DNA of 20,242 bases from Eubacteriales bacterium (GCA_031553565.1 JAVBLK010000017.1:1-20242); one strand, 5' to 3'; counted from the first letter of the stretch, positions 3,660-20,242 are shown. Numbers and translations are program-made. Notes: generated by a model not told the origin, from the letters alone.

Positions 3660-3705
3660 GCGCATAGCCTTCACATAATACCTGATCCGTGCTATAAAAT
3701 AAAAA

Positions 3706-3739: not shown

Positions 3740-3757
3740 GGAGCAAATCAGTTTTGA

Positions 3758-3916
3758 GGAAACGATGAATAAATGAGGTTAATTTAGAGCAAGTATTTTT
3801 AAGTCAGAAAACGGCTTGTTTTTGCAGCAAATAGTAGAACTATTGGCAAGAAAAGAAGACGTTTTCATCCGAAAAAGACTTGCGCTATATATTTTGCTTA
3901 AATTTTCAGCGTTTCC
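3758..3916 (-). repeat. MITE-like repeat, copy B, inverted relative to copies A and C
   Basis: The reverse complement of 3758-3916 aligns with copy C at about 90% identity. Its terminal GGAAA overlaps the left inverted repeat of the adjacent IS by about 5 nt. Confidence 0.7.
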
Positions 3917-5196: not shown

Positions 5197-5207
5197 TCAT
5201 ATTTAAC

Positions 5208-7154: not shown

Positions 7155-7166
7155 GGAAAAAAAGCA

Positions 7167-8246: not shown

Positions 8247-8461
8247 TACGGGCTACGTGCGGCAATCCCGCCTCGGTCACGTAGGTCACGACTACGCTCC
8301 CTCGGCGGTTTACCGCCTGTTGCCCGTCTGCCGCCTGATTCCCGACGGCTTGACGCGGGTGCATAAGGGGCATGATCCGGGCTGCGTGCGGAAAATCTAT
8401 CGTATGTCAGCGCGGCGAAGCCACTTTTTTTATGAAAATGGCGGTTTGGCGGCAGATATGC

Positions 8462-8490
8462 TTTACTTTATGGGCGGTATATGGTAAAAT
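8462..8490 (+). promoter_or_regulatory. Candidate promoter with an extended -10 (TTTACT-17 nt-TGgTAAAAT)
   Basis: A TG-extended -10 TAAAAT lies at 8485-8490 and -35 TTTACT at 8462-8467. It would drive an ~80-nt transcript that ends at the 8551-8580 terminator. Confidence 0.4.
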
Positions 8491-8496
8491 ACTACA

Positions 8497-8580
8497 AGTG
8501 TTAGGAAAGTTCGGCGGAAAAACAAATTGATCCACGGGTACTCGTTCAAAGGGTTGAAAATAGGTTCAACCCTTTTTATA
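8497..8580 (+). ncRNA. Candidate small RNA (~80 nt) between prfA and purF, bounded by a promoter and an intrinsic terminator. No family assigned
   Basis: A promoter-like element sits upstream and a GGGTTGAA-AATAG-GTTCAACCC hairpin plus TTTTT sits downstream. No ORF lies inside. Confidence 0.3.
8551..8580 (+). terminator. Rho-independent terminator (GGGTTGAAC stem, TTTTTATATTT tail)
   Basis: Perfect stem at 8551-8558 / 8565-8572, followed by five T residues. Confidence 0.75.
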
Positions 8581-8619
8581 TTTATCCGGGAGCCTGTTTT
8601 TGGAAAATCGGCGCGGAAG

Positions 8620-8778
8620 AAAAAGTAAAGAAGTTTAGGAATCGCTGAATAATTCGATATAATTTAGTAGCGGCGTCTTTTTCGGATGAAAACGTCTTCT
8701 TTTATTGCCAATAGTTCTACTATTTGCTGCAAAAACAAGCCGTTTTCATACTGAAAAATACTTGCCCTAAATTAACCT
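8620..8778 (+). repeat. MITE-like repeat, copy C, flanked on both sides by TTTA
   Basis: It aligns with copy A over its whole length and has the same orientation. TTTA occurs at 8616-8619 and again at 8779-8782, a possible target-site duplication. Confidence 0.7.
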
Positions 8779-8854
8779 CATTTATTCATCGGTTCCTTTA
8801 AAGTAGATTTACTAAATTGTATTTTATGCGCCTTGTTAGCGGAGGATAGTACAT

Positions 8855-10237
8855 ATGAGAAAGCTTAACGAAGAGTGCGGTGTGTTCGGAATATACGGGC
8901 ATCCGGACGCGGCAAAGATGACGTATTACGGGCTTTACGCGCTGCAGCACCGCGGACAGGAAAGCTGCGGCATAGCCGTAAACGACGACGGCAATATAAA
9001 GCTTGTACGCGATATGGGCCTTGTCAACGAGGTGTTCAACACCGGGAATATGGCCGGTATGACAGGGAATATCGCCATCGGCCACGTGCGCTACGCCGTG
9101 CAGAGCGAGGCTAACCGCGAGAACGCACAGCCGCTGGTATCGCGCTATGTCAAGGGCAGCCTGTCCATGGCGTACAACGGCTGTCTTTTAAACGCGGGCG
9201 ACCTGCGCGGAAATCTGGAGAGCAAGGGCGCAATATTCCATTGCACCAACGACGCCGAAGTCATAATGCACCTTTTGGCGATTGCGAGGACGCGCACGCA
9301 TTCAATAGAGGAGTCGGCAGAGGAGGTCATGAATAAGCTTGCGGGCGCGTATTCGATAGTTCTCATGAGCCCGCGCAAGATGCTGGGGATGCGCGACCCC
9401 AACGGTTTTAGGCCGCTATGCATAGGGACTTTGGGCGACAGCTATATTTTGGCGTCCGAATCCAGCGCGTTCGACGTTATCGGCGCCAGCTTCTTACGCG
9501 ACGTCAATCCCGGCGAGATAGTCCTTATCGACGGCCAAGGGCTGCACAGTATCATGCCCGTAAAGAAGCGGAAGCCGTCGTTATGCGTGTTCGAATACGT
9601 ATATTTTGCGCGGCCGGACAGCGTGATCGACGGCGTCAGCGTCTATGACGCCAGGCTTGCGGCAGGCAAACTGCTGGCCAAGGCCCATCCGGTCGCGGCC
9701 GACATAGTTATCGGCGTCCCCGACAGCGGCCTTACGTTTGCGGCAGGCTATGCCGAGGGCAGCGGGATCCCGCTGCGCGACGGCTTTATCAAGAACAGAT
9801 ATACCGGCAGGACCTTTATCAAGCCAAAGCAGAGCGAGAGGGAAATGGCCGTCAGTATTAAGCTGAACGTGCTTAAAACGAACGTTGCGGGAAAGCGCGT
9901 GGTCATGGTCGACGACAGCATCGTGCGCGGCACGACCTGCTCCAATATCATAAAGGCGCTCAAAAAAGCCGGGGCGAAGGAAGTGCATATGCGCGTCGCC
10001 TCGCCGGCGTTTTTGTGGCCGTGCTATTTCGGCACAGACATCCCGCAAAGGAAAGACCTTATCGCTGTCAGTATGACGCTGGAACAGATACGCGAAAGGA
10101 TAGGCGCCGATACGCTGGCGTACCTTCCGTTAAAGGATATCCCGAATATGGCGCTGCGATCCGATTTCGGCTATTGCACCGCCTGTTTTGACGGCAAGAC
10201 GCCGATAAAGATACCCCCGCACATGGTAATAAACTGA
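8855..10237 (+). CDS. purF: Amidophosphoribosyltransferase PurF (class II glutamine amidotransferase with a 4Fe-4S cluster), 460 aa
   Basis: The MRKLNEE propeptide is followed by the catalytic Cys (CGVFGI). There is a PRTase motif (VVMVDDSIVRGTT), C-terminal cluster cysteines (CYFGTD, CTACFDG) and GGAGGA 9 nt upstream of the ATG. Confidence 0.9.
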   Translation: MRKLNEECGVFGIYGHPDAAKMTYYGLYALQHRGQESCGIAVNDDGNIKLVRDMGLVNEVFNTGNMAGMTGNIAIGHVRYAVQSEANRENAQPLVSRYVKGSLSMAYNGCLLNAGDLRGNLESKGAIFHCTNDAEVIMHLLAIARTRTHSIEESAEEVMNKLAGAYSIVLMSPRKMLGMRDPNGFRPLCIGTLGDSYILASESSAFDVIGASFLRDVNPGEIVLIDGQGLHSIMPVKKRKPSLCVFEYVYFARPDSVIDGVSVYDARLAAGKLLAKAHPVAADIVIGVPDSGLTFAAGYAEGSGIPLRDGFIKNRYTGRTFIKPKQSEREMAVSIKLNVLKTNVAGKRVVMVDDSIVRGTTCSNIIKALKKAGAKEVHMRVASPAFLWPCYFGTDIPQRKDLIAVSMTLEQIRERIGADTLAYLPLKDIPNMALRSDFGYCTACFDGKTPIKIPPHMVIN

Positions 10238-10252
10238 TTTTTGGAAGCTGTC

Positions 10253-10281
10253 TTGACATCGTGGCACAATTATGCTATTAT
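10253..10281 (+). promoter_or_regulatory. Strong sigma-70 promoter (TTGACA-17 nt-TATTAT) driving the antitoxin/toxin pair
   Basis: Consensus -35 TTGACA at 10253-10258, an exactly 17-nt spacer, and -10 TATTAT at 10276-10281. A GGAGGTG Shine-Dalgarno sequence lies upstream of the ATG at 10310. Confidence 0.7.
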
Positions 10282-10309
10282 TATGATACGATAATAGCGG
10301 AGGTGTAAA

Positions 10310-10573
10310 ATGGCGATGATAATACCTATCAGGGATTTGAGAAAGACAAGCGAGATTTCCGAAATATGCAATAAAACTTCGGAACCGGTGTTCGTGACGA
10401 AAAACGGGTACGGCGATTTGGTCATTATGAGTATGAAGGCTTATAATGAAAAAATGGCGGTTCTTGATATTTTGCACAACGTACAGGAAGCCGAAGACGA
10501 AATCGCAGGGGGCGCAAAGCTGTTAGACGGGCGCGAAGCCGTCGCGTCGCTTAAAAAGAAATATGCGGAATAG
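10310..10573 (+). CDS. Phd/YefM-family type II antitoxin, 87 aa
   Basis: IPIRDLRKTSEISE...EPVFVTKNGYGDLVIMSMKAYNE matches the Phd/YefM fold signature. It overlaps the downstream toxin ORF by 11 nt. Confidence 0.75.
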   Translation: MAMIIPIRDLRKTSEISEICNKTSEPVFVTKNGYGDLVIMSMKAYNEKMAVLDILHNVQEAEDEIAGGAKLLDGREAVASLKKKYAE

Positions 10574-10745
10574 TTACCGGCTCTCGCCCAAGGCGGCGCG
10601 CGATTTGGATAAAATCTGCGTATATATCAGTTCGGAATTGAAGAATTCGAAGGCTGCTCTGGATCTTCTGGACGATTTTGAAAAAGCTTTTATCAATCTT
10701 GAAAGCTTTCCCGAAAGCTGTCCGTTGTCTCGCGATGGACTATGA
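10563..10745 (+). pseudogene. ParE/RelE-family toxin, cut short by a premature stop (60 aa present, so it lacks roughly 35 aa of a normal ParE)
   Basis: The N-terminus (YRLSPKAARDLDKICVYIS...AALDLLDDFEKAFINLESFPESCP) matches ParE, but a stop at 10743 comes before the C-terminal beta-sheet region. All three forward frames close within about 40 nt downstream. Confidence 0.6.
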
Positions 10746-10793
10746 AAATCTGATCTGACTTATGCCTTTTGTCTTTAGAAGAGAAAATCAATA

Positions 10794-10827
10794 CGCCCCT
10801 GCGTAATTTCCGGGAGGGGCGTTTTTA
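10794..10827. terminator. Intrinsic terminator shared by the convergent toxin-antitoxin operon (+) and metA (-): CGCCCCT-14 nt loop-AGGGGCG + TTTTT
   Basis: A 7-bp GC stem with T tracts on both strands (TTTTT on the + strand; ATTGATTTT on the - strand). Confidence 0.65.
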
Positions 10828-10865
10828 GTCTAGAAAACAAAAAAACGGATATTTATGGCACTTTA

Positions 10866-11780
10866 CTATATCTTGCTGATATCGTACGGGGTTTCCTGGT
10901 ATACGCAGTAGTTCAGCCAGTTGGCGAAAAGGATGTGGGAGTGGGCGCGCCAGACGTTTCGCGGCTTCTTAGTTTCATCGTTGTCAGGATAGTAATGCAG
11001 GGGTTTTTCGATAGGCAGCCCGGCTTTTAAGTCGCGCTTATATTCGCGGTCAAGGGTGTCGGCGTCGTATTCGCCGTGGCCGGTCACAAATATCTGTCTG
11101 AGGTCGCGGCTGGCGGCCAGATATACGCCGGCCTCGCCGCTTTCGCAAAGCAGTTCCAGCTTGTCGCAGGCCAGGATATCCTCGCGTTTTATAAACGTAT
11201 GGCGGCTGTGCGGCGCCCAAAAGACCTCGTCAAAGCCGCGCACGATCGGGTTGTTGAGGTTAAGCACGTTGTGCGGGAAAATGCCGAAAACTTTTTTGTC
11301 CGTATCGTATTTGTTTATGCCGTAGTGATAGTACAGGCCGGCCTGCGCCGCCCAGCAGATATAAAGGGTGGAAAAGACGTTCTTATCCGCCCACTTCATT
11401 ATTTTAGTCAGCTCCTTCCAGTATTTTACGTCCTGAAAATCCAGCTTTTCGACCGGCGCGCCGGTTATGATAAGGCCGTCGAATTTTTCCTTCTCGATCT
11501 GCTTGAACGTGCGGTAAAACTCGGCGAGGTGGCTTTCGGATGTATTGCGGCTTTTATAGGTTTCGGTGTGCAAAAGAACGGCGTCCACCTGCAGCGGCGT
11601 GTTTCCGATAAGCCGCAGAAGCTGCGTTTCGGTGACCTCTTTCGTAGGCATCAAATTGAGTATGGCGATCCTGAGCGGCCTTATCTCCTGGCTTTCGGCG
11701 CGCTGGGCGGTCATAACGAATATATTTTCCTGCTCCAGGAGTTTCTTGGCGGGAAGATTAGATGGTATCCTTACCGGCAT
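10866..11780 (-). CDS. metA: Homoserine O-acyltransferase MetA, 305 aa from the second in-frame Met
   Basis: [11 protein letters not shown]...ENIFVM...[13 protein letters not shown]...GNTPLQV are MetA family blocks. AAAGGAGA lies 6 nt upstream of the ATG at 11780, which is why this start was chosen over the ORF-track start at 11819. Confidence 0.85.
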
Positions 11781-11900
11781 AGTCGTTCTCCTTTTCAATG
11801 CCCTGCGCGCCGGGATCAAACGTCAAAAAGCGGTCGGTCTGTTCGGCGGAGCGGCAAACTGAAAGTTTTCTTGCAAGTTTCTTACTTGTAAGTTCCTTAC

Positions 11901-11930
11901 ATAATAATATATTACACTCGTAAAAGTCAA
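11901..11930 (-). promoter_or_regulatory. Candidate sigma-70 promoter for metA (minus strand TTGACT-17/18 nt-TATTAT)
   Basis: Read on the minus strand: AGTTGACTTTTACGAGTGTAATATATTATTATG. It is followed by the direct-repeat motif AACTTACAAGTAAG / AAACTTGCAAG in the leader. Confidence 0.5.
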
Positions 11931-12198
11931 CTGCGCGGCTTTTTAAGGGCGGCTGAAATCGCGTTGGCCCGGCCTCCCGGAGAAAAAAAGCGGCAAATTA
12001 AAAACTGATTAGAATGGCATTAGACGTGTATTAGAAACGCCAAACGCTATAGCTTTTCATATTTTCACAGGAGTATAATGTAACCATACAAAGGCGCTGC
12101 CGCTGGGCTTAAGAGGCCGGGGCAAAGAAAGGCCGAGGCAACGGAAGGGCAGGACAGATTAATGAAAAGCCAGAAACTACAGGAGGCAAAGGAAACAG

Positions 12199-12816
12199 AT
12201 GAACAAGTATGAATACCTTGACGAGTTGAGGAGGCGTATCGGCAGGCTGCCGCAATACGACATTGATAACGCGGTCAACGCTTATTCGGTCGAGATCGGC
12301 AGGATGCTTGACGAGGAGTGGGACTGGGGCAGGATCGAAGGCGCGATCGGCAGCCCGAAAGAGGCGGCACGGCGCGTTTTGGACGGAAGGCCGGTTTATG
12401 TATCGCAAAACAATATGCCCGGCTATCGCTATAACGGCCCCGGCGTTTACCAAAGCGCATACGGCGGGGGCGCGAACGGCGGCGCGCAGGGCAACGCGCC
12501 AAAGAGCAAACGCGGCGCCTTCTGGAAGTATTATTTCATTTTCGGGCTTATCACGATACCGCTTACGATAGCTGCGCTTGCCACGGCATTCGCGCTGTGC
12601 GCCGCGGCATTCGGCCTTGCGGCGGGCGGCGCGGCGGCGATAATATACTCGGTAATAATCGGCATAACCACCGGGTCGCTTTTAGTGTTTTTAACATACT
12701 GCGGCGCGGCGCTGCTTGTACTGGGCACAGGCTTGTTATTTGCGTGGGTCATAAAGATAGTTTTTAAGTCGGTCATCGCGCTGCTGGGCGGCAAAAACCG
12801 TAGGGCGGAGGAATAA
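12199..12816 (+). CDS. DUF1700-family membrane protein, 205 aa, with an N-terminal cytoplasmic helical domain and C-terminal transmembrane helices
   Basis: MNKYEYLDELRRRIGRLPQYDIDNAVNAYSVEI...GSPKEAARRVL matches the DUF1700 N-terminal signature. It contains a Gly-rich linker and hydrophobic C-terminal segments. The RBS is AGGAGG/AAGGAAA. Confidence 0.65.
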   Translation: MNKYEYLDELRRRIGRLPQYDIDNAVNAYSVEIGRMLDEEWDWGRIEGAIGSPKEAARRVLDGRPVYVSQNNMPGYRYNGPGVYQSAYGGGANGGAQGNAPKSKRGAFWKYYFIFGLITIPLTIAALATAFALCAAAFGLAAGGAAAIIYSVIIGITTGSLLVFLTYCGAALLVLGTGLLFAWVIKIVFKSVIALLGGKNRRAEE

Positions 12817-12819
12817 GAA

Positions 12820-13848
12820 ATGAAAGAACGCAAGAATAAACATAGGTTACTGATAACCGCCATAGTAATTATTGTGCTGGGTGCGGCGGCTGTGGGCGGC
12901 GCGGCGCTTTCGGGCGGGCTGGAGCGCGATGCCTGGTCAAGCGCGGACGCGAAGCTGCGCGCGGCAAAGGGCTATTACGAGCAGCCCGAGGTAAGATCCG
13001 TCAGCTATGGGACGGACGAGATAGAGTCGATCTCCATGACGCTTAAACATGACAGCGTCATGGTGGCGGCGGGCGAGGGCGACAGGATAGATTTTAAGTA
13101 TTTTATTGATTACGAGAATCAATATGAGATCAGCGCGGACAACAAAACTCTCAGCGTTGTCAGGAATGCCGACCCCGCGGGGATAAAGGGCATGCTGCTG
13201 TATCCGGATCTGTCGTGGATCCTCGGCGCTTTTGACGGCGAGCCTGTATACGATATCATTATAACGGTGCCGCAAGACTTTGAAATGACAAATCTTACAA
13301 TAACCGGCGCCAGCGGCAATTTCCATGTGGAAAATGTTGCGGCGGAAGTCATGGATCTGACGCTTGACAGCGGCAACATTACCGCGGAGAACGTCAAGGC
13401 CGGGAACCTCAATGCCGGGGCGCACAGCGGTAACGTGACGGTCTCGGGCGCGGCGGCGGATAAGCTGGATGCCCGGCTTACCAGCGGCAGCCTGAAAGTT
13501 AAGGACAGCGCGGTCAGCGGCGGTATCATCGCTCAGCTTACCAGCGGCAACGCGACTTTTACGGGGACGGCCGCGCAGTCCTGCGAGGCGGGGATCACCA
13601 GCGGCAATCTGAGGCTTATCGGTTGTACAATATACAAAAACGAGCTTTCGGCAAGGAGCGGCAATATTACCTTAAAGGATCTGCCGCAAGGATTCACGTC
13701 GGAAACGGCCGGTTTTGATATAAGGGTCGGCAGCGGCGCTATCAGGGTAGACGGCAAAAGCCGCGGCGGCAGCTTTAAGGCATCCCCGGAAAACCCTCTT
13801 TACACAGTAACTGCGCAGCTTACCAGCGGCAGCTTTAAATTCAATTGA
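12820..13848 (+). CDS. DUF4097-family (LiaG-like, putative beta-helix adhesin-type) protein, 342 aa, with an N-terminal signal/anchor
   Basis: Repeated ~20-aa beta-strand units with the pattern TSGN(I/L/A)T(V/L)... (LTSGSLKVKD, LTSGNATFTG, ITSGNLRLIG, RSGNITLKDL), typical of DUF4097. It is translationally coupled (3-nt gap) to the DUF1700 gene, which is the usual arrangement. Confidence 0.7.
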   Translation: MKERKNKHRLLITAIVIIVLGAAAVGGAALSGGLERDAWSSADAKLRAAKGYYEQPEVRSVSYGTDEIESISMTLKHDSVMVAAGEGDRIDFKYFIDYENQYEISADNKTLSVVRNADPAGIKGMLLYPDLSWILGAFDGEPVYDIIITVPQDFEMTNLTITGASGNFHVENVAAEVMDLTLDSGNITAENVKAGNLNAGAHSGNVTVSGAAADKLDARLTSGSLKVKDSAVSGGIIAQLTSGNATFTGTAAQSCEAGITSGNLRLIGCTIYKNELSARSGNITLKDLPQGFTSETAGFDIRVGSGAIRVDGKSRGGSFKASPENPLYTVTAQLTSGSFKFN

Positions 13849-13914
13849 CGCGGCGTGATCGGAAAGTAAAATGAAAGATTAGAATCAGTTTAAAACATAA
13901 TAAATAACCGTACA

Positions 13915-13965
13915 GAAACCCTTGCTGTTTATATAATAGAATTATGAAGCAGCAGGGTTTTTCTG
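13915..13965 (+). terminator. Probable terminator (imperfect AAACCCTTGCTG / CAGCAGGGTTT stem with a large loop, then TTTTTC)
   Basis: Seen in the sequence. The stem carries one bulge and a ~22-nt AT-rich loop. Confidence 0.4.
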
Positions 13966-13999
13966 ATATGTGCGGCAGCAGTGCCGGCGCAGTGAAGGA

Positions 14000-14028
14000 T
14001 TGACCTTGGCGGTAAAATGATATATAAT
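14000..14028 (+). promoter_or_regulatory. Sigma-70 promoter (TTGACC-17 nt-TATAAT) for the nfeD-SPFH-floT operon
   Basis: -35 at 14000-14005, a 17-nt spacer, and a perfect -10 TATAAT at 14023-14028. Confidence 0.7.
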
Positions 14029-14093
14029 TATTTTACGCCTCTGAAGCGATCATTCTGAAGAAACAGAAAGCCTAAATTTGTCCGGGGAGGTAT

Positions 14094-14843
14094 ATGAGGA
14101 TGTTATTACTAAGTTTGACTTCATGGTGGGGAGACCTCAACAATTTCACAAAGGTATTTTATATAATCGCGATAGCGGCCAGCCTTATCCTGCTTATACA
14201 GCTGATCATCGCTATGTTCGGCTTCGGGCATGACGCGGACGTCGGCGGCGCGGACGCGGATATGGGCGGCGACGTCGGCGCGGGCGGCGCGGATTACGAC
14301 GCGGGGACAGACCTTGGCGGGCATGATATCGCGCATGACGCCGGCGGGCACGACGTCAGCCACGGCGGCGCGGGATTAAGGCTGTTCTCCGTGCAGACGA
14401 TAGTCAGCTTTCTGGTCACCTTCGGCTGGAGCGGCGTGGCCTTCGGCAGCACCGCAATGCCCCAATGGCTTGCGTTTATCATAGCGTTCCTTATCGGTAC
14501 AGTGACGCTTTTCGGTATGGCGAAGCTGATGCAGGCGATGATGAAATTACAGTCTGCGGGCAACATCGACTTAAAGAATGCCGTCGGGCTTTCGGGCGAG
14601 GTATATATCCCCGTGCCGGCAAACCAGGGCGGCATGGGCAAGGTCAATATAACGATACAGGGACGCCTCGGCGAATATAACGCGGTAACCTTAGGCGAAG
14701 AGCTCTTAAAGACCGGCGTGTTTGTTAAAGTTGCCGAGGTGCGCGGAAACACCTTGGTAGTTGTAAAGGACGACGGGGCAAGGCTGCCGCAAACTGAAAC
14801 AGCGGATGCGCAAATTGAAGTAAAGCCCAAAAAGCGCAAGTAA
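14094..14843 (+). CDS. NfeD-like membrane protein (YuaF/YqeZ type) with a C-terminal OB-fold domain and an unusual Asp/His/Gly-rich insert, 249 aa
   Basis: N-terminal transmembrane helices; a low-complexity acidic segment GHDADVGGADADMGGDVGAGGADYDAGTDLGGHDIAHDAGGHDVSHGG; further transmembrane helices; and a C-terminal beta-rich region (GEVYIPVP...GKVNITIQGRLGEYNAV...VFVKVAEVRGNTLVVV). The gene sits directly upstream of SPFH genes. Confidence 0.7.
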   Translation: MRMLLLSLTSWWGDLNNFTKVFYIIAIAASLILLIQLIIAMFGFGHDADVGGADADMGGDVGAGGADYDAGTDLGGHDIAHDAGGHDVSHGGAGLRLFSVQTIVSFLVTFGWSGVAFGSTAMPQWLAFIIAFLIGTVTLFGMAKLMQAMMKLQSAGNIDLKNAVGLSGEVYIPVPANQGGMGKVNITIQGRLGEYNAVTLGEELLKTGVFVKVAEVRGNTLVVVKDDGARLPQTETADAQIEVKPKKRK

Positions 14844-14867
14844 TTTAAGGCATGAGGGAGAAACGAT

Positions 14868-15404
14868 ATGCCGCTTGGAGTAGTGATAGGCACACTTGCC
14901 GCAGTAATATTAGTATGCATAGCTGTGATCGCTTTATGGATGTCACGATATAAGAAATGCCCGTCCGACAAGATTATGGTCATCTACGGTAAGGTCGGCG
15001 TCGATAAAGAGGGCAAACCAATAACGGCAAAGTGCTTGCACGGCGGCGCGGCATTTATTATGCCGGTAATCCAGGCCTACGCTTTCCTCGATCTTGCGCC
15101 TATCGGCATCGAGATCGCGCTGTCGCAGGAAGAGGGCAGCTTTAGGGGAACTTTCGCGGTCGCGGTTTCAACCGAGCCGGGGCTTATGCAATGCGCTGCC
15201 GAAAGGCTGATGGCGCTGTCCAGAAAAGATATTGCCGAGCTTGCGGACAGCATATTGCGCAGCCACGTACGCCAGATATTGTTTGATAAAAGCGCAGGCC
15301 GCCGCGAGATAGCGCAAACAATTGCGGAGGCAGCCGGGCCGGATCTAAATAAAGTAGGCCTCCATATTGTTAACGCAGACATTTCAGAATACAAGCTTAT
15401 ATAA
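14868..15404 (+). CDS. Short SPFH (band-7) domain protein, 178 aa. It is a diverged tandem paralogue of the N-terminal half of the downstream flotillin
   Basis: SRYKKCPSDKIMVIYGKVG...HGGAAFIMPVIQAYAFLDL parallels SRYKRCPADKILVIYGKVG...HGGAAFIMPVTQSFQFLDL in the next gene. It ends where the flotillin coiled-coil would begin. Its RBS is GAGGGAGA. Confidence 0.7.
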   Translation: MPLGVVIGTLAAVILVCIAVIALWMSRYKKCPSDKIMVIYGKVGVDKEGKPITAKCLHGGAAFIMPVIQAYAFLDLAPIGIEIALSQEEGSFRGTFAVAVSTEPGLMQCAAERLMALSRKDIAELADSILRSHVRQILFDKSAGRREIAQTIAEAAGPDLNKVGLHIVNADISEYKLI

Positions 15405-15448
15405 ATAGGCAAAGTATATAAAGCAACTTATAAAAGGAGAACGGAACA

Positions 15449-16870
15449 ATGGAATTAGGTGCAATCATCGGTATTATCCTTGCGGTCATTTTTGTTGTTG
15501 TCGCAGTTGTGCTTATTTGGGCGTCGCGCTATAAAAGGTGCCCGGCGGATAAGATCCTTGTTATCTACGGTAAGGTAGGCAAGAACAGCGCGGGCGGGAA
15601 CATCTCGGCAAAGTGTATTCACGGCGGCGCGGCCTTCATTATGCCCGTAACGCAGAGCTTTCAGTTCTTGGATCTTACGCCTATGTCGATCAGCGTCGAC
15701 CTTAAGAACGCGCTGTCGCGCCAGAACATACGTATCGACGTGCCCAGCCGCTTTACGGTCGCCATCTCGACCGAGCAGGGCGTTATGCAGAACGCTGCGG
15801 AAAGGCTGCTGCGCTTGAAGCTGCCCGAAATACAGGAGCTGGCTAAGGATATCATATTCGGACAATTACGTCTTGTCATCGCGCAGATGGAGATCGAGGA
15901 GATCAATACCGACCGCGATAAGTTTTTACAGGCGGTTTCGCAGAACGTGGAGACCGAGCTTAAGAAGATCGGTTTAAGGCTTATCAACGTCAACATAACC
16001 GACATCAACGACGAGAGCGGATATATCCAGGCGTTAGGCCGCGAGGCCGCCGCAAAGGCGATCAACGACGCGAAGAAGAGCGTTGCCGAAAAAGACCGCG
16101 ACGGCGCGATCGGACAGGCGAACGCGCAGAGGGACCAGCGTATCCAGGTATCCAACGCCAACGCTTTGGCGGTCGAGGGCGAAAACAAGGCCAAGGCCGA
16201 GATCGCCCAGTCCGACGCGACAAGGCGCGAGAAGGAGGCAGAAGCCTTAAAGCGCGCTATGGCGGCCGAAAAGGTGCAGGCGGCAAAAGCCTTGCAGGAA
16301 GCCTATGTGGCGCAGCAGCTGGCTGAAACCACCCGTGCAACACTTGAAAAGGCGACTTTGGCGGCGGACGTTATTGTAAAAGCCGATATCGAAAAGCAGA
16401 AGATCGAGATCGCAGCCGAGGCCGAGGCAGAGAACCTGCGCCGCAGGGCAAAGGGCGAGGCGGACGCTATCTTTGCAAAGATGCAGGCGCAGGCGAAAGG
16501 TATCAACGAGATGCTGACCAAGCAGGCGGACGGCTTAAAGGAAATCGTAAAGGCCGCGAACGGCAATCCCGATGCGGCAGTACGCCTTATGATAACCGAC
16601 AAGCTGGAGGATATCGTAAAGGTACAGGTCGAGGCGGTCAAGAACCTGAAGATCGACAAGGTCACCGTTTGGGACAGCATGGGCGGCGCGGGCGGAAGCG
16701 GCGCGCCCGCAACGGCGAACTTTTTGTCGGGAATGTTGAAGTCCGTACCACCCTTAAACGACCTCTACAAGATGGCGGGGCTGGAGCTGCCGGAATTTTT
16801 AGGCAAGCAACAGTCCGATGCGCCCGAAAAGCTTGACGCAGGCGAAAAGAAAGCGCCTGCCAAGAAGTAA
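15449..16870 (+). CDS. floT: Flotillin (FloT/YuaG-like) with an N-terminal membrane hairpin, an SPFH domain and a long Ala/Glu-rich coiled-coil, 473 aa
   Basis: SPFH blocks followed by EA-repeat coiled-coil (AEKDRDGAIGQANAQRDQRIQVS...AEAEAENLRRRAKGEADAIFAKMQAQAKG). The RBS is AAAAGGAGAA. Confidence 0.8.
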   Translation: MELGAIIGIILAVIFVVVAVVLIWASRYKRCPADKILVIYGKVGKNSAGGNISAKCIHGGAAFIMPVTQSFQFLDLTPMSISVDLKNALSRQNIRIDVPSRFTVAISTEQGVMQNAAERLLRLKLPEIQELAKDIIFGQLRLVIAQMEIEEINTDRDKFLQAVSQNVETELKKIGLRLINVNITDINDESGYIQALGREAAAKAINDAKKSVAEKDRDGAIGQANAQRDQRIQVSNANALAVEGENKAKAEIAQSDATRREKEAEALKRAMAAEKVQAAKALQEAYVAQQLAETTRATLEKATLAADVIVKADIEKQKIEIAAEAEAENLRRRAKGEADAIFAKMQAQAKGINEMLTKQADGLKEIVKAANGNPDAAVRLMITDKLEDIVKVQVEAVKNLKIDKVTVWDSMGGAGGSGAPATANFLSGMLKSVPPLNDLYKMAGLELPEFLGKQQSDAPEKLDAGEKKAPAKK

Positions 16871-16909
16871 GCAACAGGCAGAATTTGCCAGAAAACTGTT
16901 TATACTATA

Positions 16910-16943
16910 AATACCCTCCGGCGGTTGCCGGAGGGTATTTTCA
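16910..16943 (+). terminator. Rho-independent terminator (AATACCCTCCGGC-GGTT-GCCGGAGGGTATT + TTTCAT)
   Basis: A perfect 13-bp stem with a tetraloop. It marks the end of the GC-rich block. Confidence 0.8.
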
Positions 16944-17024
16944 TAAGCAAGGAATAGTTAAAACGTGTCGTGAGCACAGCCTCCGCCGCGATAAACTTGA
17001 AAATACTAGCGGAATAGAAAAGTT

Positions 17025-17753
17025 TTGACGGTAGCCATAGCGGCTGTTTTGCTTTGTTCTGTTTTAATTGGGTTTTCGGGGTGTAAAGAAAGATATAAGG
17101 AATTTGAGACGGAATATTTTAAATGCCGCGAGTATAAGGACAGAATCAATATTCCTGAATTGACATATTTGGGTAAGGAGCAAGAAATTCTTATTGTACC
17201 CGAAAAAATACGAGGAAAACCGGTTGCGCTGCTGGGGGAAACGGCAGTTTATTTGGATGGGGCGGGAAGTTATTCGCGCTGGAAAAGTGATAAACTTAAA
17301 AAGCTGTTTTTAAAGCGTAAGGCAAGAGCGCCATTAAGTAAGAACTGTTTTCCGAGCCTTGAAGGAATTTATGTTATAGGATTATCAAATGAGAATGGGT
17401 TAAGTAGCGAGATGTTTGATACGCAAGATGTAAAAATATATGTTCCTAATATATTTGAAAATACATATAATCACAGACTTTTTACTGCAAATGTCGGATA
17501 CTTATACAATTATGATGAAAGTCCGCAGTATGACTATTATTGGATAGATTACTATGCTTACGGCGCAAAGATAAATTATATTCCTCCTGTTCCGGAGCGG
17601 AATGGATATATTTTTTCCGGTTGGTATAAAGAAGCAGCTTGTGTCCTTGAATGGAATTTCGATTTTGGCACACTTCCTGCACCTATATTGGATGAAGATG
17701 GAGTAACAATATATCAAGAACTTAAACTATACGCCAAGTGGATCAAGAATTAG
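17025..17753 (+). CDS. Predicted lipoprotein with a C-terminal Listeria/Bacteroides-type repeat (GYxFxGWY...LYAKW) domain, 242 aa, TTG start (start uncertain)
   Basis: Signal peptide with lipobox FSGC. GYIFSGWYKEAACVLEWNFDFGTLP...IYQELKLYAKW matches the List_Bact repeat signature. The gene is AT-rich, unlike upstream genes. Confidence 0.55.
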   Translation: MTVAIAAVLLCSVLIGFSGCKERYKEFETEYFKCREYKDRINIPELTYLGKEQEILIVPEKIRGKPVALLGETAVYLDGAGSYSRWKSDKLKKLFLKRKARAPLSKNCFPSLEGIYVIGLSNENGLSSEMFDTQDVKIYVPNIFENTYNHRLFTANVGYLYNYDESPQYDYYWIDYYAYGAKINYIPPVPERNGYIFSGWYKEAACVLEWNFDFGTLPAPILDEDGVTIYQELKLYAKWIKN

Positions 17754-17781
17754 TACGATAAAAATTATAAGGGAGAAACAA

Positions 17782-18006
17782 ATGAGAAAATCTATTAAGC
17801 TGATTATAGCTATGGTTTTTGCAGTTTTTATCGCCTTTACAGCGTTCACTTTTATTAAGCCAGCTGAAGTGGCCGCGAATTCCGGCGTTTCGGGCGCGCC
17901 GACTGGACAAGCATTACTGAGTGCGACAAATACATATAATATCGATTATTTCAGCACACAGCCGTTGAATCGTGGTCAGGGGGACGTTTACCTTGACAGA
18001 GAATAG
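17782..18006 (+). CDS. Small secreted protein (74 aa) whose last 10 codons (GQGDVYLDRE) and stop codon are supplied by the left arm and loop of the hairpin repeat. Probably a truncated gene
   Basis: Signal peptide MRKSIKLIIAMVFAVFIAFTAFTF. The C-terminus is identical to that of ORF 19011-20066 and is encoded by repeat sequence starting at 17974. Confidence 0.5.
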   Translation: MRKSIKLIIAMVFAVFIAFTAFTFIKPAEVAANSGVSGAPTGQALLSATNTYNIDYFSTQPLNRGQGDVYLDRE

Positions 18007-18052
18007 AGAGATTGAGGCTTATAGTCCTGTCAAGGTAAACGTCCCCCTGACC
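17974..18052. repeat. Hairpin repeat, copy 1. Perfect 26-bp inverted arms (GGTCAGGGGGACGTTTACCTTGACAG / CTGTCAAGGTAAACGTCCCCCTGACC) are separated by a 27-nt spacer. It is the first part of a duplicated module of at least 227 bp (17974-18200 nearly identical to 20034-20242)
   Basis: The arms are exact reverse complements at 17974-17999 and 18027-18052. The second copy at 20034-20112 differs by one spacer base. Confidence 0.9.
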
Positions 18053-18083
18053 ACTTTGATACGTTGCCTGAAAACGTGCGTGA

Positions 18084-18338
18084 ATGATGGAGCAGAAGAC
18101 ATACAATTGGCTTGAGCATGAGGATAAGGTTTATGAGGCCTTTGGCAATGTGCTGACAGAACTAGTAAATAAATATAAAATTGATGATAAAAAAGCTTTG
18201 AAGGACGACGAGTTGCTAAAACGGATAGGGATTGAACTGCGAAACCGTACGGGCGCGAGTAAGAGACTGATAGCGCAAAAGCTGGAAATCGATCGGGAAC
18301 GGGTAAGAAAACTGCTGTCAATTGCCCCGTCCCCGTGA
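18084..18338 (+). CDS. Small helix-turn-helix protein, 84 aa. The C-terminal HTH resembles sigma-70 region 4 and the HTH of IS630/transposase helper proteins. The first ~32 codons are duplicated at 20145
   Basis: LLKRIGIELRNRTGASKRLIAQKLEIDRERVRKLL shows the HTH pattern. The gene start lies inside the duplicated module, 32 nt after the hairpin. Confidence 0.55.
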   Translation: MMEQKTYNWLEHEDKVYEAFGNVLTELVNKYKIDDKKALKDDELLKRIGIELRNRTGASKRLIAQKLEIDRERVRKLLSIAPSP

Positions 18339-18359
18339 CACTGTGGATTTCCGTTTGCG

Positions 18360-18383
18360 TTTACAGAATAAATATGTTATAAT
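18360..18383 (+). promoter_or_regulatory. Extended -10 promoter (TGTTATAAT) upstream of the lipoprotein gene
   Basis: The TGnTATAAT consensus at 18375-18383 is perfect. The -35-like TTTACA is too close (12 nt), so the call rests on the extended -10. Confidence 0.45.
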
Positions 18384-18502
18384 GCATTTGTAAGATGGTG
18401 TTTTTTTACTCTTTTGCAGGCTCGCGAATATAATATACTGGAATGCTTTAAGGTTTGCACCTACAATGAGGTTGTAAGCCGACGTAAAAAGGGAGGTTCA
18501 AA

Positions 18503-18955
18503 ATGACAAAGAAATTAGCAAAAATTCTGATAATGGGGGTGCTGATAATAATGGCAATTGGGCTATTTACAGCTTGTGGCGACAAGGATTGGAGCAAAGA
18601 TTTCGATTTGTCCGACGAAAAAATCGTTTGGGATGAATCGACTTATGTTGACGACGAACATACGACGCCTGACAAATTGATTGTTAAATTCAAAAGCACA
18701 GACACATACCCTTATTTAAAGTTGCGAGATTTCAAGATGTCAAATGCAAAGGGGTTTGTTTATACAAATTTGAATCCCAATGAGGGTGAGTTGTATTATG
18801 ATGGCTGGCGTCAAAGCGGAGAAATTGCTTTGAAAAAAACAGATAAGCAAAGCATAATTGCAGCGATAAGACACATAGAAACATTGCCATTCATTAAATC
18901 GGTTCAGCAGATGCAGAACATTCCAGTTGACAATTCCGTAATGACAATTCCGTAA
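18503..18955 (+). CDS. Predicted lipoprotein, 150 aa, no recognisable domain
   Basis: Signal peptide with lipobox LFTAC. GGAGG Shine-Dalgarno 7 nt upstream. AT-rich codon usage. Confidence 0.55.
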   Translation: MTKKLAKILIMGVLIIMAIGLFTACGDKDWSKDFDLSDEKIVWDESTYVDDEHTTPDKLIVKFKSTDTYPYLKLRDFKMSNAKGFVYTNLNPNEGELYYDGWRQSGEIALKKTDKQSIIAAIRHIETLPFIKSVQQMQNIPVDNSVMTIP

Positions 18956-19010
18956 TGGTAGATTTAGCAAATATAAAACACAAAAAAATAAAAATCTGGA
19001 GAAAAATTAA

Positions 19011-20066
19011 ATGAGAACCGAAACACTTTTCAAGAGACAATGGAAAATTTCGGTTATAGCACTGGTGTTAATAGTACTTGTCGCAAGTATATTGTGTGCA
19101 ACAATTCCAACAACAGCATACGCAAAAGAAGTAGATTTTGCGGAAAATACAATTCAGCGACGAATTCCAACACTTAATGACGATTTTGACGATAGCAAAG
19201 TTATTGTTGTTCTTAACCAAAAGAATAGTAAATACAATGGTGTAGTTAGAATTGAGGATTTTAAGATAGACGTAGAAAAGGCAAGTCTGGTTAATACTCA
19301 ACGGACTGAACGTTTAGATAGAAGCGATGATTCCGCTACGGATGCAGTTAAAACTGGACAAGCAGTAGTCACCGACCTTTTTCGGGTAGATAATGCGAAA
19401 AGTAGTAGTTTGGTGAGCGAAAGCGAGTTTTTTCAAATACTATCTATTGATTTGCCTATAAGAGGAAAAGAAAAGGTTCTTGAGGCGATAGCAGAGCTTA
19501 AAAAATCTGAGATAGTTTATTCTGCTGAGCCAGATTATCGTTACGAAACGATTGATTTGTGGGCACCTAACGATACGAACTATACCACTAGTCAGTGGGG
19601 GTTAACGGGAACAAATGGGATACAAGCAGCAAATGCTTGGGATATGACGCGAGGTCTTGCTGATATTAGAGTGGGCTTATTTGAAACAGGTGCGCAGCAA
19701 AATCACCCCGACCTAGACGGCAGGTTTTTGGCACCAAATTTTACATTAGGTAATGCAGACCATGGAACTCACGTTGCAGGAATTGTGGGTGCCATTTCAA
19801 ATAATAATCAAGGAGTAGCAGGCGTTTCACAATCTAATATGATGTTGCTAAATCGCAATTCAAACGATTTTGTTGACAGCATGGCAAGGGCTGCAAATAA
19901 TAATATTTGGGTTATCAACGCTAGTTACGAGTACATAAGCGGTGGCGTAATAGAAAATCACGCAGTTGCAATACATAATTACCAAGGTTTGCTCGTGTGC
20001 GCCGCAGGCAACAGCACTGCAGATATTGATAATGGTCAGGGGGACGTTTACCTTGACAGAGAATAG
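19011..20066 (+). pseudogene. Subtilisin-like (S8) serine protease with a signal peptide and an I9 propeptide. It is truncated after the oxyanion-hole Asn region by the hairpin repeat, so the catalytic Ser block is missing, and it has Glu at the catalytic Asp position
   Basis: The His block HGTHVAGIVGA and the Asn block LVCAAGNS are present. The Asp-block position reads GLFETGAQQNHPDL. The ORF ends with GQGDVYLDRE-stop, which is encoded by the repeat from 20034. No GTSMA block appears before the window ends. Confidence 0.6.
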
Positions 20067-20112
20067 AGAGATTGAGGCTTCTAGTCCTGTCAAGGTAAAC
20101 GTCCCCCTGACC
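20034..20112. repeat. Hairpin repeat, copy 2 (same 26-bp perfect arms, 27-nt spacer with one substitution)
   Basis: The arm and spacer sequence is identical to 17974-18052 except for A to C in the spacer. Downstream similarity continues to the window end, with a single inserted A. Confidence 0.9.
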
Positions 20113-20144
20113 ACTTTGATACGTTGCCTGAAAACGTGCGTGAA

Positions 20145-20242
20145 ATGATGGAGCAGAAGACATACAATTGGCTTGAGCATGAGGATAAGGTTTATGAGGC
20201 CTTTGGCAATGTGCTGACAGAACTAGTAAATAAATATAAAAT
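20145..20242 (+). CDS. Second copy of the small HTH protein gene (5' part only, cut off by the window end)
   Basis: It translates to MMEQKTYNWLEHEDKVYEAFGNVLTELVNKYKI, which is identical to the N-terminus of ORF 18084-18338. Confidence 0.5.
   Translation, partial: MMEQKTYNWLEHEDKVYEAFGNVLTELVNKYK

What the first reader, a model, noticed from the sequence alone, without database searches (positions are those of the whole stretch)
16950..20242. Compositionally distinct AT-rich accessory island encoding lipoproteins and secreted proteins
GC content falls sharply after the flotillin terminator at 16910-16943. Every ORF after that point (a List_Bact-repeat lipoprotein, a small secreted protein, an HTH protein, a 150-aa lipoprotein and a subtilase fragment) uses AT-rich codons. 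These ORFs are interleaved with the hairpin modules and with strong extended -10 promoters. This is consistent with horizontally acquired or rapidly evolving cell-surface cargo.
Basis: seen in the sequence. Interest (0 to 1): 0.5.

Follow-up and report, generated by a model that had tools for sequence, protein, structure and literature searches.

The report
Foreign AT-rich gene patch, transposon-eroded
The last 3.3 kb of this contig is a real low-GC patch of surface-protein genes acquired from low-GC bacteria. Most of those genes are broken, and the "hairpins" and the "HTH protein" are two copies of a small repeat derived from a tyrosine-transposase gene, one of which interrupts the protease gene.

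Summary
The composition shift is real. GC is 0.508 for 1-16949 and 0.394 for 16950-20242. GC3 is 0.57-0.76 in the 11 named host genes and 0.31-0.49 in the ORFs after the flotillin terminator. Horizontal origin is well supported: the lipoprotein and subtilase genes are 93-96% identical in DNA to short low-GC metagenome contigs, one next to trmD in a 33%-GC contig.

It is not a classical island, and little of the cargo is intact.
- The List_Bact lipoprotein gene lacks its family's N-terminal MKK region.
- The "small secreted protein" is the 64-codon stump of a ~1080-aa esterase/LRR surface-protein gene.
- The subtilase is cut after codon 341, with intact empty sites in related contigs.
- Only the 150-aa lipoprotein gene looks complete.

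The "hairpin modules" plus the "HTH protein" form one 369-bp repeat, at 17973-18341 and at 20033 to the contig end (99% identical). It consists of a head-to-head dimer of a 28-nt REP-like unit, the C-terminal third of a TIRYT/RAYT-like Y1 transposase gene, and an inverted unit at the 3' end.

The same palindrome motif gave at least 120 matches in metagenomes and twice abuts full-length Y1 genes. The window is a whole contig that ends inside the repeat, so the far boundary cannot be seen.

The parts
16909..16941 (+). Intrinsic terminator of the flotillin gene. It is the last host-like feature before GC falls.
   Evidence: 14-bp stem, -17 kcal/mol, z -7.55, followed by TTTT. GC profile.
16985..17024 (+). 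Approximate left junction of the low-GC DNA. This is the degraded 5' end of the List_Bact lipoprotein gene: the family's ATG, MKK n-region and ribosome-binding site are not preserved, and there is an in-frame TAG at 17007-17009.
   Evidence: Protein alignment with six homologues, all starting MKK..K. DNA alignment with L089. Sequence read.
17025..17753 (+). List_Bact (Flg_new / InlB B-repeat) lipoprotein ORF of 242 aa. It has a TTG start and the lipobox GFSGC. The body is intact; the N-terminus is shortened relative to the family.
   Evidence: PF09479, 32 bits (cut-off 27). TIGR02543. 24 homologues, best 58% identity. GC3 0.32.
17782..17972 (+). 5' stump (64 codons, including the signal peptide) of a large surface-protein gene. 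The ORF then reads 10 more codons (GQGDVYLDRE*) into the repeat and ends at 18006.
   Evidence: 51% identity over 62 aa to the N-terminus of the 1082-aa esterase/LRR_5/Flg_new protein that follows the List_Bact homologue in L089. The subtilase ORF carries the same element-encoded tail.
17973..18341 (+). Repeat copy 1 (369 bp): a truncated TIRtron-like element. The right end is inferred from where an independent assembly resumes.
   Evidence: 99% identical to 20033-20242 over 210 nt. Logan contigs stop at 18002 and restart at 18312, which for k=31 (the k value is my assumption about that assembly) puts the repeat ends at about 17973 and 18341.
17972..18054 (.). Perfect hairpin: two 28-nt REP-like units (GTGGTCAGGGGGACGTTTACCTTGACAG) head to head around a 27-nt spacer.
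   Evidence: 28-nt arms, 100% complementary. -35.6 kcal/mol, z -12.7. Fits the family consensus GTGTCAsGGGGACGnnTnnnnTGACAC.
18055..18338 (+). Remnant of the C-terminal (HTH) third of a TIRYT/RAYT-like Y1 transposase gene. The 84-aa ORF is 18084-18338. Copy 1 carries a 1-nt deletion just before the ATG.
   Evidence: Full HMMER search: 16 homologues, aligning to residues ~136-211 or ~175-250 of 241-257-aa Y1_Tnp proteins. Alignment from HFDT onward. tblastn shows the frame break in copy 1. No ribosome-binding site.
18315..18342 (-). Right-end unit in inverted orientation (rc AGTGTCACGGGGACGGGGCAATTGACAG). It overlaps the ORF's last codons.
   Evidence: Core GTCACGGGGACG at 18328-18339 on the minus strand. 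By my count, 18 of 28 positions match the left unit (sequences printed).
18355..18434 (+). Candidate promoters for the lipoprotein gene: TTGCGT-17-TGtTATAAT (18355-18383, extended -10) and TTTACT-18-TATAAT (18405-18434).
   Evidence: The first was read from the sequence. The second was listed by the scan at 10 of 12.
18503..18955 (+). 150-aa lipoprotein (lipobox LFTAC, strong ribosome-binding site AGGGAGG). It is the only cargo gene that looks intact. Its function is unknown.
   Evidence: No family hit. 90-91% aa and 93-96% nt identical to genes in L084 and L087, and paired with the subtilase in L083 and L084.
19011..20032 (+). 5' part (about 341 codons) of an S8 subtilase gene, interrupted by repeat copy 2. 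The ORF runs to 20066 on element sequence. The catalytic Ser region is missing.
   Evidence: PF00082 profile positions 4-158 of 288. Full-length homologues are 505-580 aa. Empty sites in L088 (95.7% nt) and L083 (76%) continue as ...IDNATNRRYPAGY.
20033..20242 (+). Repeat copy 2, cut by the end of the contig. The hairpin is at 20033-20113. Here the transposase-remnant frame is open from just after the hairpin (PDHFDTLPENVREMMEQK...).
   Evidence: The contig length equals the window length.

Best explanation
The region is a patch of DNA acquired horizontally from low-GC Clostridia-like bacteria by a ~55%-GC spore-forming Oscillospirales-like genome. It sits immediately downstream of the flotillin operon.

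It consists of two surface-protein modules:
- List_Bact lipoprotein + large esterase/LRR surface protein.
- 150-aa lipoprotein + S8 subtilase.

The two modules are now joined, and partly destroyed, by a 369-bp multi-copy repeat. That repeat is an internally deleted TIRtron. It has an upstream head-to-head dimer of a 28-nt REP-like unit, then the last third of a Y1 (HUH) tyrosine-transposase gene of the TIRYT / TnpA_Y1 subclass-2.1-like type with a C-terminal HTH, then an inverted unit at the 3' end.

Inferred mechanism. A full-length TIRYT encoded elsewhere in the genome recognises the folded units on single-stranded DNA. It cuts and rejoins at their feet, moving the truncated element in trans without target duplication. 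One copy landed in the subtilase gene. The other either landed in the large surface-protein gene or served as a recombination point that deleted about 3 kb of it.

Shown: the composition shift, the foreign relatives, the repeat and its homology, the interrupted subtilase with empty sites, and the stump.
Inferred: mobilisation in trans, the direction and timing of transfer, and that copy 1 marks a deletion.
For: Composition.
- GC, GC3 and tetranucleotide contrasts.

Foreign relatives.
- Window 18514-19768 is 93.4% identical to L084.
- 19066-20034 is 95.7% identical to L088.
- 18532-18943 is 95.6% identical to L087. These contigs have GC 0.33-0.41.
- L087 carries trmD (PF01746, 1e-31) with GC3 0.38 next to the lipoprotein gene.
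- The S8 homologue P0004 and the List_Bact homologue P0135 lie among housekeeping genes in contigs of 37-38% GC.
- None of 80 flotillin loci from other species has any island gene downstream.

The repeat.
- Two copies, 99% identical over 210 nt.
- An independent assembly breaks exactly at it.
- ORF84 matches the C-terminal domain of Y1_Tnp proteins. The closest is 54% identical, and full-length members score 76-80 bits on NF047646, REP-associated tyrosine transposase.
- The window has no catalytic-domain remnant.
- The core GTCAsGGGGACG occurs only at the three units of copy 1 and the two visible units of copy 2.

The palindrome family.
- Positions not imposed by the search pattern are conserved: GT at -2/-1 in 78-85% of units and TGACAC in 61-85%.
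- There were no matches in viral contigs.
- The motif abuts Y1 genes in L108 (54 bp upstream) and L095 (a cluster starting 8 bp after the stop).

Gene damage.
-.

Literature.
- TIRYT genes flanked by TIRs that form dispersed dimer or cluster families: PMC3733652.
- Subclass 2.1 with a C-terminal HTH: 10.1101/279083.
Against: - No close relative of the host genome was available, so insertion into an ancestrally empty site downstream of flotillin is not shown.
- Only one complete copy of the repeat is visible and copy 2's right junction lies off the contig. Clean transposition is therefore inferred from a single left junction plus empty sites in other organisms.
- The link between 17972 and 18342 crosses a multi-copy 369-bp repeat and could be an assembly choice.
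- No full-length TIRYT gene is known for this genome.
- The TIR motif GGGGWSAS reported for TIRYTs matches only 6 of 8 positions here (GGGGACGT).
- The short low-GC contigs L084 and L088 have no host marker genes. They could themselves be islands in high-GC hosts. Only L087 (trmD), L085 and L090 anchor a low-GC background.
Confidence: 0.7

Rival explanations
1. Partial assembly artefact. The List_Bact gene and the stump really follow flotillin, but the segment 18342-20242 (lipoprotein + subtilase) lies elsewhere in the genome. The assembler threaded it through the shared 369-bp repeat.
For: - The stump's gene does not continue after copy 1: about 3 kb expected from L089 is missing.
- The Logan assembly of SRR23967709 does not bridge the repeat. 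Its contigs end at 18002 and restart at 18312.
- The contig itself terminates in copy 2.
Against: - The two copies differ by one SNP and one indel, which an assembler can use to phase them.
- A recombination or deletion between repeat copies explains the same picture biologically.
- Either way, both segments are low-GC and both carry the repeat.
Confidence: 0.15
2. Native locus. The block is an old, vertically inherited surface-protein locus whose AT-richness reflects fast evolution or special codon usage, not transfer.
For: - Surface-protein genes often deviate in composition (general knowledge).
- There is no integrase, att site or flanking direct repeat.
- The gene orientation is the same as that of the neighbours.
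Against: - GC3 is 0.31-0.42 against 0.57-0.76 in the named host genes, including host envelope genes such as DUF4097 and the NfeD-like ORF.
- 93-96% nucleotide identity to genes in low-GC contigs with unrelated flanks, one beside trmD. Vertical descent with divergence cannot give this.
- Absent downstream of flotillin in 80 other species.
Confidence: 0.07
3. Cross-organism chimera at ~16950. The whole low-GC part belongs to a different, low-GC organism in the same sample.
For: - All relatives of the cargo genes are in low-GC contigs.
- The contig may come from a metagenome.
Against: - A second assembly (Logan contig L002) spans 14955-18002 at 100% identity.
- No repeat lies at the junction. 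The nearest structure, the terminator at 16909-16941, is a unique palindrome.
Confidence: 0.05
4. Classical mobile island: a prophage, ICE, integron cassette array or plasmid insertion whose integrase lies beyond the contig end.
For: The far boundary is unseen. A tRNA cluster exists at 678-1623.
Against: - No match to 50,697 phage or 72,556 plasmid records at blastn sensitivity.
- The hairpin motif is absent from 2.9 million viral contigs.
- The hairpins are perfect palindromes of a transposase-linked family. By reading, they lack the imperfect, bulged form of attC sites.
- The tRNAs are 15 kb away, with housekeeping genes in between.
Confidence: 0.03

Closest known systems
[quoted passage not shown] 2013, PMC3733652). 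These correspond to TnpA_Y1 subclass 2.1 (Quentin et al. 2018, 10.1101/279083) and RAYT group 1 (Bertels et al. 2017, PMC5581495).
   Same: - The homologues are Y1/HUH proteins of ~250 aa with a C-terminal HTH extension.
- The gene is flanked by inverted repeats containing GGGGAC.
- Those repeats also occur as dispersed dimers and clusters.
- The 3' repeat overlaps the end of the gene.
   Different: - Here only the C-terminal third of the gene survives.
- The truncated unit itself is present in at least two near-identical copies, and one interrupts a gene.
- The motif is GTGTCAsGGGGACG...TGACAC, which matches GGGGWSAS at 6 of 8 positions.
- Quentin et al. found no REP-like sequences near subclass 2.1 genes. 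Firmicutes are not mentioned in PMC3733652.
REP / REPIN - RAYT systems of Proteobacteria (REPtrons)
   Same: - A short imperfect palindrome unit.
- Head-to-head doublets that fold into long hairpins.
- Many mostly intergenic copies per genome: 53 of 83 hairpins lie outside long open frames.
- The units cluster next to a Y1 gene (L095).
   Different: - There is no 5' GTAG/GTGG foot.
- The associated protein carries an HTH tail.
- REPtrons are reported not to move as a unit, whereas this truncated gene-containing unit is duplicated.
IS200/IS605 insertion sequences and their miniature derivatives (PATEs)
   Same: - A Y1 HUH transposase superfamily.
- Hairpin-forming ends.
- No target-site duplication is seen at copy 1.
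- Internal-deletion derivatives are mobilised in trans.
   Different: - IS200/IS605 ends are not inverted repeats of each other, and TnpA lacks the HTH domain.
- A conserved 4-5-nt target 5' of the left end is not evident (CGTG against AATG).
Small integrase-less genomic islets of horizontally acquired surface-protein genes (general concept)
   Same: - An abrupt GC and codon shift that starts at a terminator.
- Cargo of lipoproteins, a protease and LRR proteins.
- Near-identical copies in unrelated genomes.
   Different: - Most of the cargo is truncated.
- The boundaries and internal joins are set by a Y1-transposase-derived repeat rather than by an integrase, IS pair or tRNA.

Membership tests
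Classical genomic island | Composition distinct from the host genome | tested here: met
   GC 0.394 against 0.508. GC3 0.31-0.49 against 0.57-0.76 in the named host genes. Tetranucleotide distance is doubled.
Classical genomic island | Integrase or recombinase gene inside the island | tested here: not met
   No such ORF or domain in 16950-20242. Only a catalytic-domain-less Y1 remnant is present. The far part is off the contig.
Classical genomic island | Insertion at a tRNA or att site with flanking direct repeats | tested here: inconclusive
   The nearest tRNAs are at 678-1623, 15 kb away. No direct repeat lies at the left junction. The right boundary is not in the contig.
Classical genomic island | Variable presence among close relatives | not testable with these tools
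   The best flotillin relatives are 65-75% identical. None of 80 loci has the block, but upstream synteny is lost as well.
TIRtron / TIRYT (TnpA_Y1 subclass 2.1) | Y1 HUH catalytic domain (PF01797) | tested here: not met
   Absent from the window. Present in the homologues P0155 and P0164-P0167. The window therefore holds a derivative, not a member gene.
TIRtron / TIRYT (TnpA_Y1 subclass 2.1) | C-terminal HTH extension | tested here: met
   ORF84 aligns over its full length with the C-terminal ~80 residues of 241-257-aa Y1 proteins, with E down to 2.5e-15. Weak HTH family hits occur in the same stretch of the homologues.
TIRtron / TIRYT (TnpA_Y1 subclass 2.1) | Gene flanked by terminal inverted repeats | tested here: met
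   Left unit 17972-17999 and inverted right unit 18315-18342, with 18 of 28 positions matching by my count. The core GTCAsGGGGACG is exact in both.
TIRtron / TIRYT (TnpA_Y1 subclass 2.1) | TIR motif GGGGWSAS (PMC3733652) | tested here: inconclusive
   GGGGACGT matches 6 of 8 positions. The common metagenome variant GGGGACGG matches 7 of 8.
TIRtron / TIRYT (TnpA_Y1 subclass 2.1) | TIRs belong to a dispersed repeat family, often as dimers or clusters | tested here: met
   At least 120 palindromes in metagenome contigs and 224 units in 80 loci, with up to 17 units in 8 kb. They lie adjacent to Y1 genes in L095 and L108.
Canonical REP / RAYT | 5' GTAG (GT[AG]G) foot on the REP unit | tested here: not met
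   Units start GTGTCA or GTGGTCA, with no GTAG.
IS200/IS605 / PATE | Insertion 3' of a conserved tetra- or pentanucleotide; ends are not inverted repeats | tested here: not met
   The left flanks are AATCG|TGG and GATAA|TGG, sharing at most TG. The ends are inverted repeats. Only two sites were available.
S8 subtilase | Asp-His-Ser catalytic triad | tested here: not met
   The Asp position is Glu (GLFETG) in this whole subfamily. His is present (HGTHVAG). The Ser motif GTSMAAP lies beyond the interruption and is absent from the window.
List_Bact (Flg_new) repeat lipoprotein | Flg_new repeat plus a lipoprotein signal peptide | tested here: met
   PF09479, 32 bits against a cut-off of 27, and TIGR02543. 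The lipobox GFSGC is conserved with homologues, but the MKK n-region is missing.

The most novel reading that the evidence does not exclude
The 369-bp unit is an actively moving, non-autonomous TIRtron derivative that a full-length TIRYT mobilises in trans. The GTGTCAsGGGGACG...TGACAC palindromes, abundant in gut-type metagenomes, are the REP/REPIN equivalent of HTH-bearing (subclass 2.1-like) Y1 transposases. No REP-like partner was found for that subclass before. This would give sequence-level evidence, with an empty site, that such elements can transpose as gene-containing units and inactivate genes.
Probability: 0.3. Interest if true: 0.55.

Novelty: new member of a known kind. Interest (0 to 1): 0.35.

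Why it matters
- For annotation. Three of the five ORFs in this block should not be called as independent genes: a stump, a transposase remnant and an interrupted protease. A fourth has a doubtful start.
- For assembly. The repeat explains why the contig, and an independent assembly, break here. It also explains why low-GC islets like this one can be binned away from their host: a 93%-identical 1.3-kb contig is filed under a Moranbacteria MAG.
- For mobile-element biology. The locus links a widespread, apparently undescribed palindrome family to HTH-bearing Y1 transposases, and offers a candidate case of such a unit disrupting a gene.
- As an island, it is an ordinary small acquisition.

Tried and rejected
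- Rfam. Only tRNAs passed the gathering thresholds. The hairpins gave sub-threshold miRNA-like hits, which reflect generic hairpin shape. This removed the idea of a group II intron that the GTGCG after the hairpin had suggested.
- attC or integron cassette idea. Rejected by reading: the stems are perfect and bulge-free, and the hairpins belong to a transposase-linked family.
- Word-indexed protein search with ORF84 found only itself. The exhaustive HMMER search was needed.
- The exact 23-mer of the hairpin gave 0 hits in viral and metagenome contigs. The element and the whole region gave no blastn match in plasmids or phages.
- Synteny test with 80 flotillin loci. It is uninformative beyond 'absent', because only the NfeD-like/flotillin pair is shared.
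- Exact look-ups of window proteins returned only the source contig and short Logan contigs of one run. The organism name and the far boundary could not be obtained.
- Idea that the 150-aa lipoprotein is an I9-like propeptide or inhibitor of the subtilase. BLASTP against the subtilase N-terminus showed no similarity and there was no family hit. The single-sequence AlphaFold model was unusable (pLDDT 38), so no fold search was run.
- A target-site duplication was looked for at copy 1 by eye. None was convincing.

Full report
**What the window is.**
The 84-aa ORF and the other proteins of the region are on record from a single NCBI contig whose length equals the window, 20,242 bp. The window is therefore a whole contig. 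It carries:
- a tRNA cluster;
- spoIIAA-spoIIAB-sigF, an IS with a DDE_Tnp_1 transposase, prmC, prfA, purF, metA, DUF4097 and HAAS-domain genes;
- an NfeD-like ORF, a short flotillin-like paralogue and a 473-aa flotillin.

The flotillin's best relatives among one genome per species are Oscillospirales-type MAGs and isolates (Flemingiibacterium, Intestinimonas, Acutalibacter, Neglectibacter) at only 65-75% identity. The host is thus a poorly sampled spore-forming Clostridia lineage with about 55% GC in its genes.

**Check of the observation.**
- GC is 0.508 for 1-16949 and 0.394 for 16950-20242. The sliding profile drops from 0.53 to 0.37 within 500 bp after the flotillin stop.
- The 11 named host genes have GC3 of 0.57-0.76. 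Two small unannotated ORFs (10310-10745) have 0.49-0.56. The five ORFs after 16950 have 0.32, 0.43, 0.49, 0.42 and 0.31.
- Tetranucleotide distance to the core doubles. Only the IS at 3751-5250 matches it elsewhere.
- The terminator (16909-16941), the List_Bact repeat hit, the partial S8 hit and the two perfect hairpins are all present as described.
- I could confirm one extended -10 promoter, at 18355-18383, by reading the sequence. Promoter-like sites overall are only about two standard deviations above shuffles in this AT-rich DNA.

**The hairpins and the 'HTH protein' are one repeat.**
- Positions 17973-18181 and 20033-20242 are 99% identical over 210 nt, differing by one SNP in the loop and one extra A. 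The second copy is cut by the contig end.
- An independent Logan assembly of run SRR23967709 yields one contig equal to window 14955-18002 and another equal to 18312-20061.
- For a k=31 graph (my assumption about that assembly), those break points place the repeat at about 17973-18341. They also show that the repeat is multi-copy in that genome.
- The word-indexed protein search found nothing for the 84-aa ORF. The exhaustive HMMER search found 16 relatives.
- The ORF corresponds to the last ~80 residues of 241-257-aa proteins whose N-terminal halves are Y1_Tnp (IS200-like) domains. These proteins score 76-80 bits on NCBIfam 'REP-associated tyrosine transposase', just under its cut-off of 80.
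- In copy 2 the frame is open from the base after the hairpin. It reads PDHFDTLPENVREMMEQK..., which aligns with ...LFDTCPKNMRANMMEKS... of a homologue.
- Copy 1 has lost one base just before the ATG.
- No catalytic-domain remnant exists anywhere in the window, and the ORF has no ribosome-binding site.
- The 'HTH protein' is therefore a transposase-gene remnant.

**Architecture of the repeat.**
- The core GTCAsGGGGACG occurs in the window only at 17975 (+), 18040 (-), 18328 (-), 20035 (+) and 20100 (-).
- The element is a 28-nt unit, a 27-nt spacer, the inverted unit, the gene remnant, and an inverted unit overlapping the last codons. By my count, that last unit shares 18 of 28 positions with the left unit (sequences).
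The same pattern gave no hit in 2.9 million viral contigs.
- In the 80 fetched loci the arms pair for up to 44 bp.
- Positions that the pattern did not specify are conserved: GT before the core in 78-85% of units and TGACAC after a 7-nt variable block in 61-85%. The resulting unit consensus is GTGTCAsGGGGACGnnTnnnnTGACAC, itself a small palindrome.
- Most hairpins (53 of 83) lie outside long open frames, and 16 sit at the very end of one (a crude test).
- Two loci contain a Y1 gene, and in both the units touch it. In L108 a dimer lies 54 bp upstream of the start. In L095 a four-unit cluster begins 8 bp after the stop, and there are 15 cores in 12 kb.
- The L108 arrangement (dimer, then gene) is what the window's element would look like before an internal deletion. 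That deletion would run from just after the dimer to about codon 165.

**Comparison with the literature.**
- Di Nocera et al. described RAYT-like genes flanked by long inverted repeats. They called them TIRtrons, with TIRYT transposases. Many of the repeats share GGGGWSAS, and some form moderately abundant families of dimers and clusters (PMC3733652).
- Quentin et al. placed most TIRYTs in TnpA_Y1 subclass 2.1, defined by a C-terminal HTH or DnaA-like domain. [quoted passage not shown]
- Bertels et al. note that the corresponding RAYT group 1 occurs in Clostridia (PMC5581495).
- The present repeat fits this kind. It differs in its motif (6 of 8 positions of GGGGWSAS), in having a clear REPIN-like partner family, and in being a truncated gene-containing unit present in at least two near-identical copies.

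**State of the cargo genes.**
- *Subtilase.* Full-length homologues are 505-580 aa. L088 (95.7% nucleotide identity to 19066-20034) and L083 (76%) continue through the point where the window switches to the repeat: window ...GATATTGATAATG|GTCAGGGGG, L088 ...GATATTGATAATG|CAACAAATAGACGG. The window copy lacks the catalytic Ser region.
- *'Small secreted protein'.* Its first 62 residues are 51% identical to the N-terminus of a 1082-aa esterase/LRR_5/Flg_new protein. That protein follows the List_Bact homologue in L089. The ORF is therefore a stump, and it ends on the same element-encoded tail GQGDVYLDRE* as the subtilase ORF. The rest of that gene does not follow copy 1. Either recombination between repeat copies deleted it, or the assembler joined two loci through the repeat.
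- *List_Bact lipoprotein.* It belongs to a small family of 250-275-aa proteins (24 hits, best 58% identity). The window copy lacks the MKK..K n-region present in all six aligned homologues. It has an in-frame TAG at 17007-17009 and can only start at a TTG without a Shine-Dalgarno sequence. This places the left edge of the foreign DNA at about 16985-17010.
- *150-aa lipoprotein.* It is the only gene with a promoter, a strong ribosome-binding site and a full-length match to its relatives.

**Evidence for horizontal origin.**
- The lipoprotein-subtilase pair recurs in L084 (93.4% nt; a 1.3-kb contig filed in a 'Moranbacteria' MAG) and in L083 (76%; followed by an IS3-type transposase).
- The lipoprotein gene alone recurs in L087 at 95.6% identity with unrelated flanks. 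There it lies downstream of trmD (PF01746), whose GC3 is 0.38.
- More distant homologues of the subtilase and the List_Bact protein sit among housekeeping genes in contigs of 37-38% GC.
- The cargo's GC3 in the window equals that in those contigs, so it has not drifted towards host composition. This suggests recent arrival (inference).
- None of 80 flotillin loci from other species has any of these genes downstream. Because synteny beyond the NfeD-like/flotillin pair is lost in all of them, this is weak evidence.
- No phage or plasmid record matches the region.

**Mechanism and confidence.**
- The best-supported account is that a small piece of low-GC Clostridia DNA carrying two surface-protein modules was acquired downstream of the flotillin operon.
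- A truncated TIRtron, presumably mobilised in trans by a full-length Y1+HTH transposase acting on the folded units in single-stranded DNA, then inserted into or recombined within it and left mostly pseudogenes.
- The transfer, the repeat's identity and the subtilase interruption are shown. Trans-mobilisation, the absence of target duplication and the deletion at copy 1 are inferred.
- I give this account 0.7.
- The main rival is a mis-join through copy 1 (0.15). It changes the map but not the nature of the parts.

**Verdict.**
As an 'island' this is an ordinary, largely decayed horizontal acquisition with no classical island machinery visible. The more interesting content is the repeat: a new member of the little-studied TIRYT/TIRtron kind, with a widespread palindrome family and a candidate gene-disrupting insertion.

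Noticed in passing
window 158-324, 8631-8798 (direct) and 3742-3921 (inverted): A second repeat family of ~170 nt, 86-90% identical. The inverted copy lies directly upstream of the DDE_Tnp_1 transposase gene (3985-5049, GC3 0.42). The family is probably this IS's end region plus two solo copies. These copies account for the other AT-rich dips in the window.
   Followed up: partly
window 19650-19700 (GLFETG) and homologues P0003, P0004, P0009, P0010, P0014, P0016: The whole subtilase subfamily to which the island gene belongs has Glu at the position of catalytic Asp32 of subtilisin. His and Ser are kept in the full-length members. More distant S8 hits keep Asp.
   Followed up: partly
window 14868-15404: A 178-aa ORF just upstream of the flotillin gene is a paralogue of the flotillin N-terminus. 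DNA identity to 15523-15684 is 72-77%, and it hits NCBIfam FloT at 51 bits.
   Followed up: no
window 8226-8349: An imperfect palindrome (43-nt arms, 79% complementary, 38-nt spacer) that overlaps the last ~20 nt of prfA and extends about 100 nt downstream of its stop. It is unrelated in sequence to the GGGGACG units.
   Followed up: no
window 59-100: The contig starts about 60 nt from another GGGGGAC-type hairpin (AAGGGGGACA...TGTCCCCCTT, 10-bp stem, z only -2.1). A short ATGATG... ORF lies just before it. This may be a degenerate relative of the same kind of unit at the other contig end.
   Followed up: partly
L084 (RZZP01000609.1, GCA_010014575.1): A 1.3-kb contig 93% identical to the island's lipoprotein-subtilase pair is deposited in a 'Candidatus Moranbacteria' MAG. 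Such low-GC islets are likely to be mis-binned away from their hosts.
   Followed up: no
L092 1753-2010; also proteins P0156 and P0157: Stand-alone 85-93-aa ORFs equivalent to ORF84 (46-50% identity) exist in other metagenomes. They start at the same MM.E motif and end in the same ...SP + CGTCCCC motif. Either the same truncation recurs, or the HTH tail persists as a small gene.
   Followed up: partly
L095 and L098: Two metagenome contigs carry 15 and 17 GTCAsGGGGACG cores in 12 kb and 8 kb. This density is typical of REP-rich genomes.
   Followed up: no
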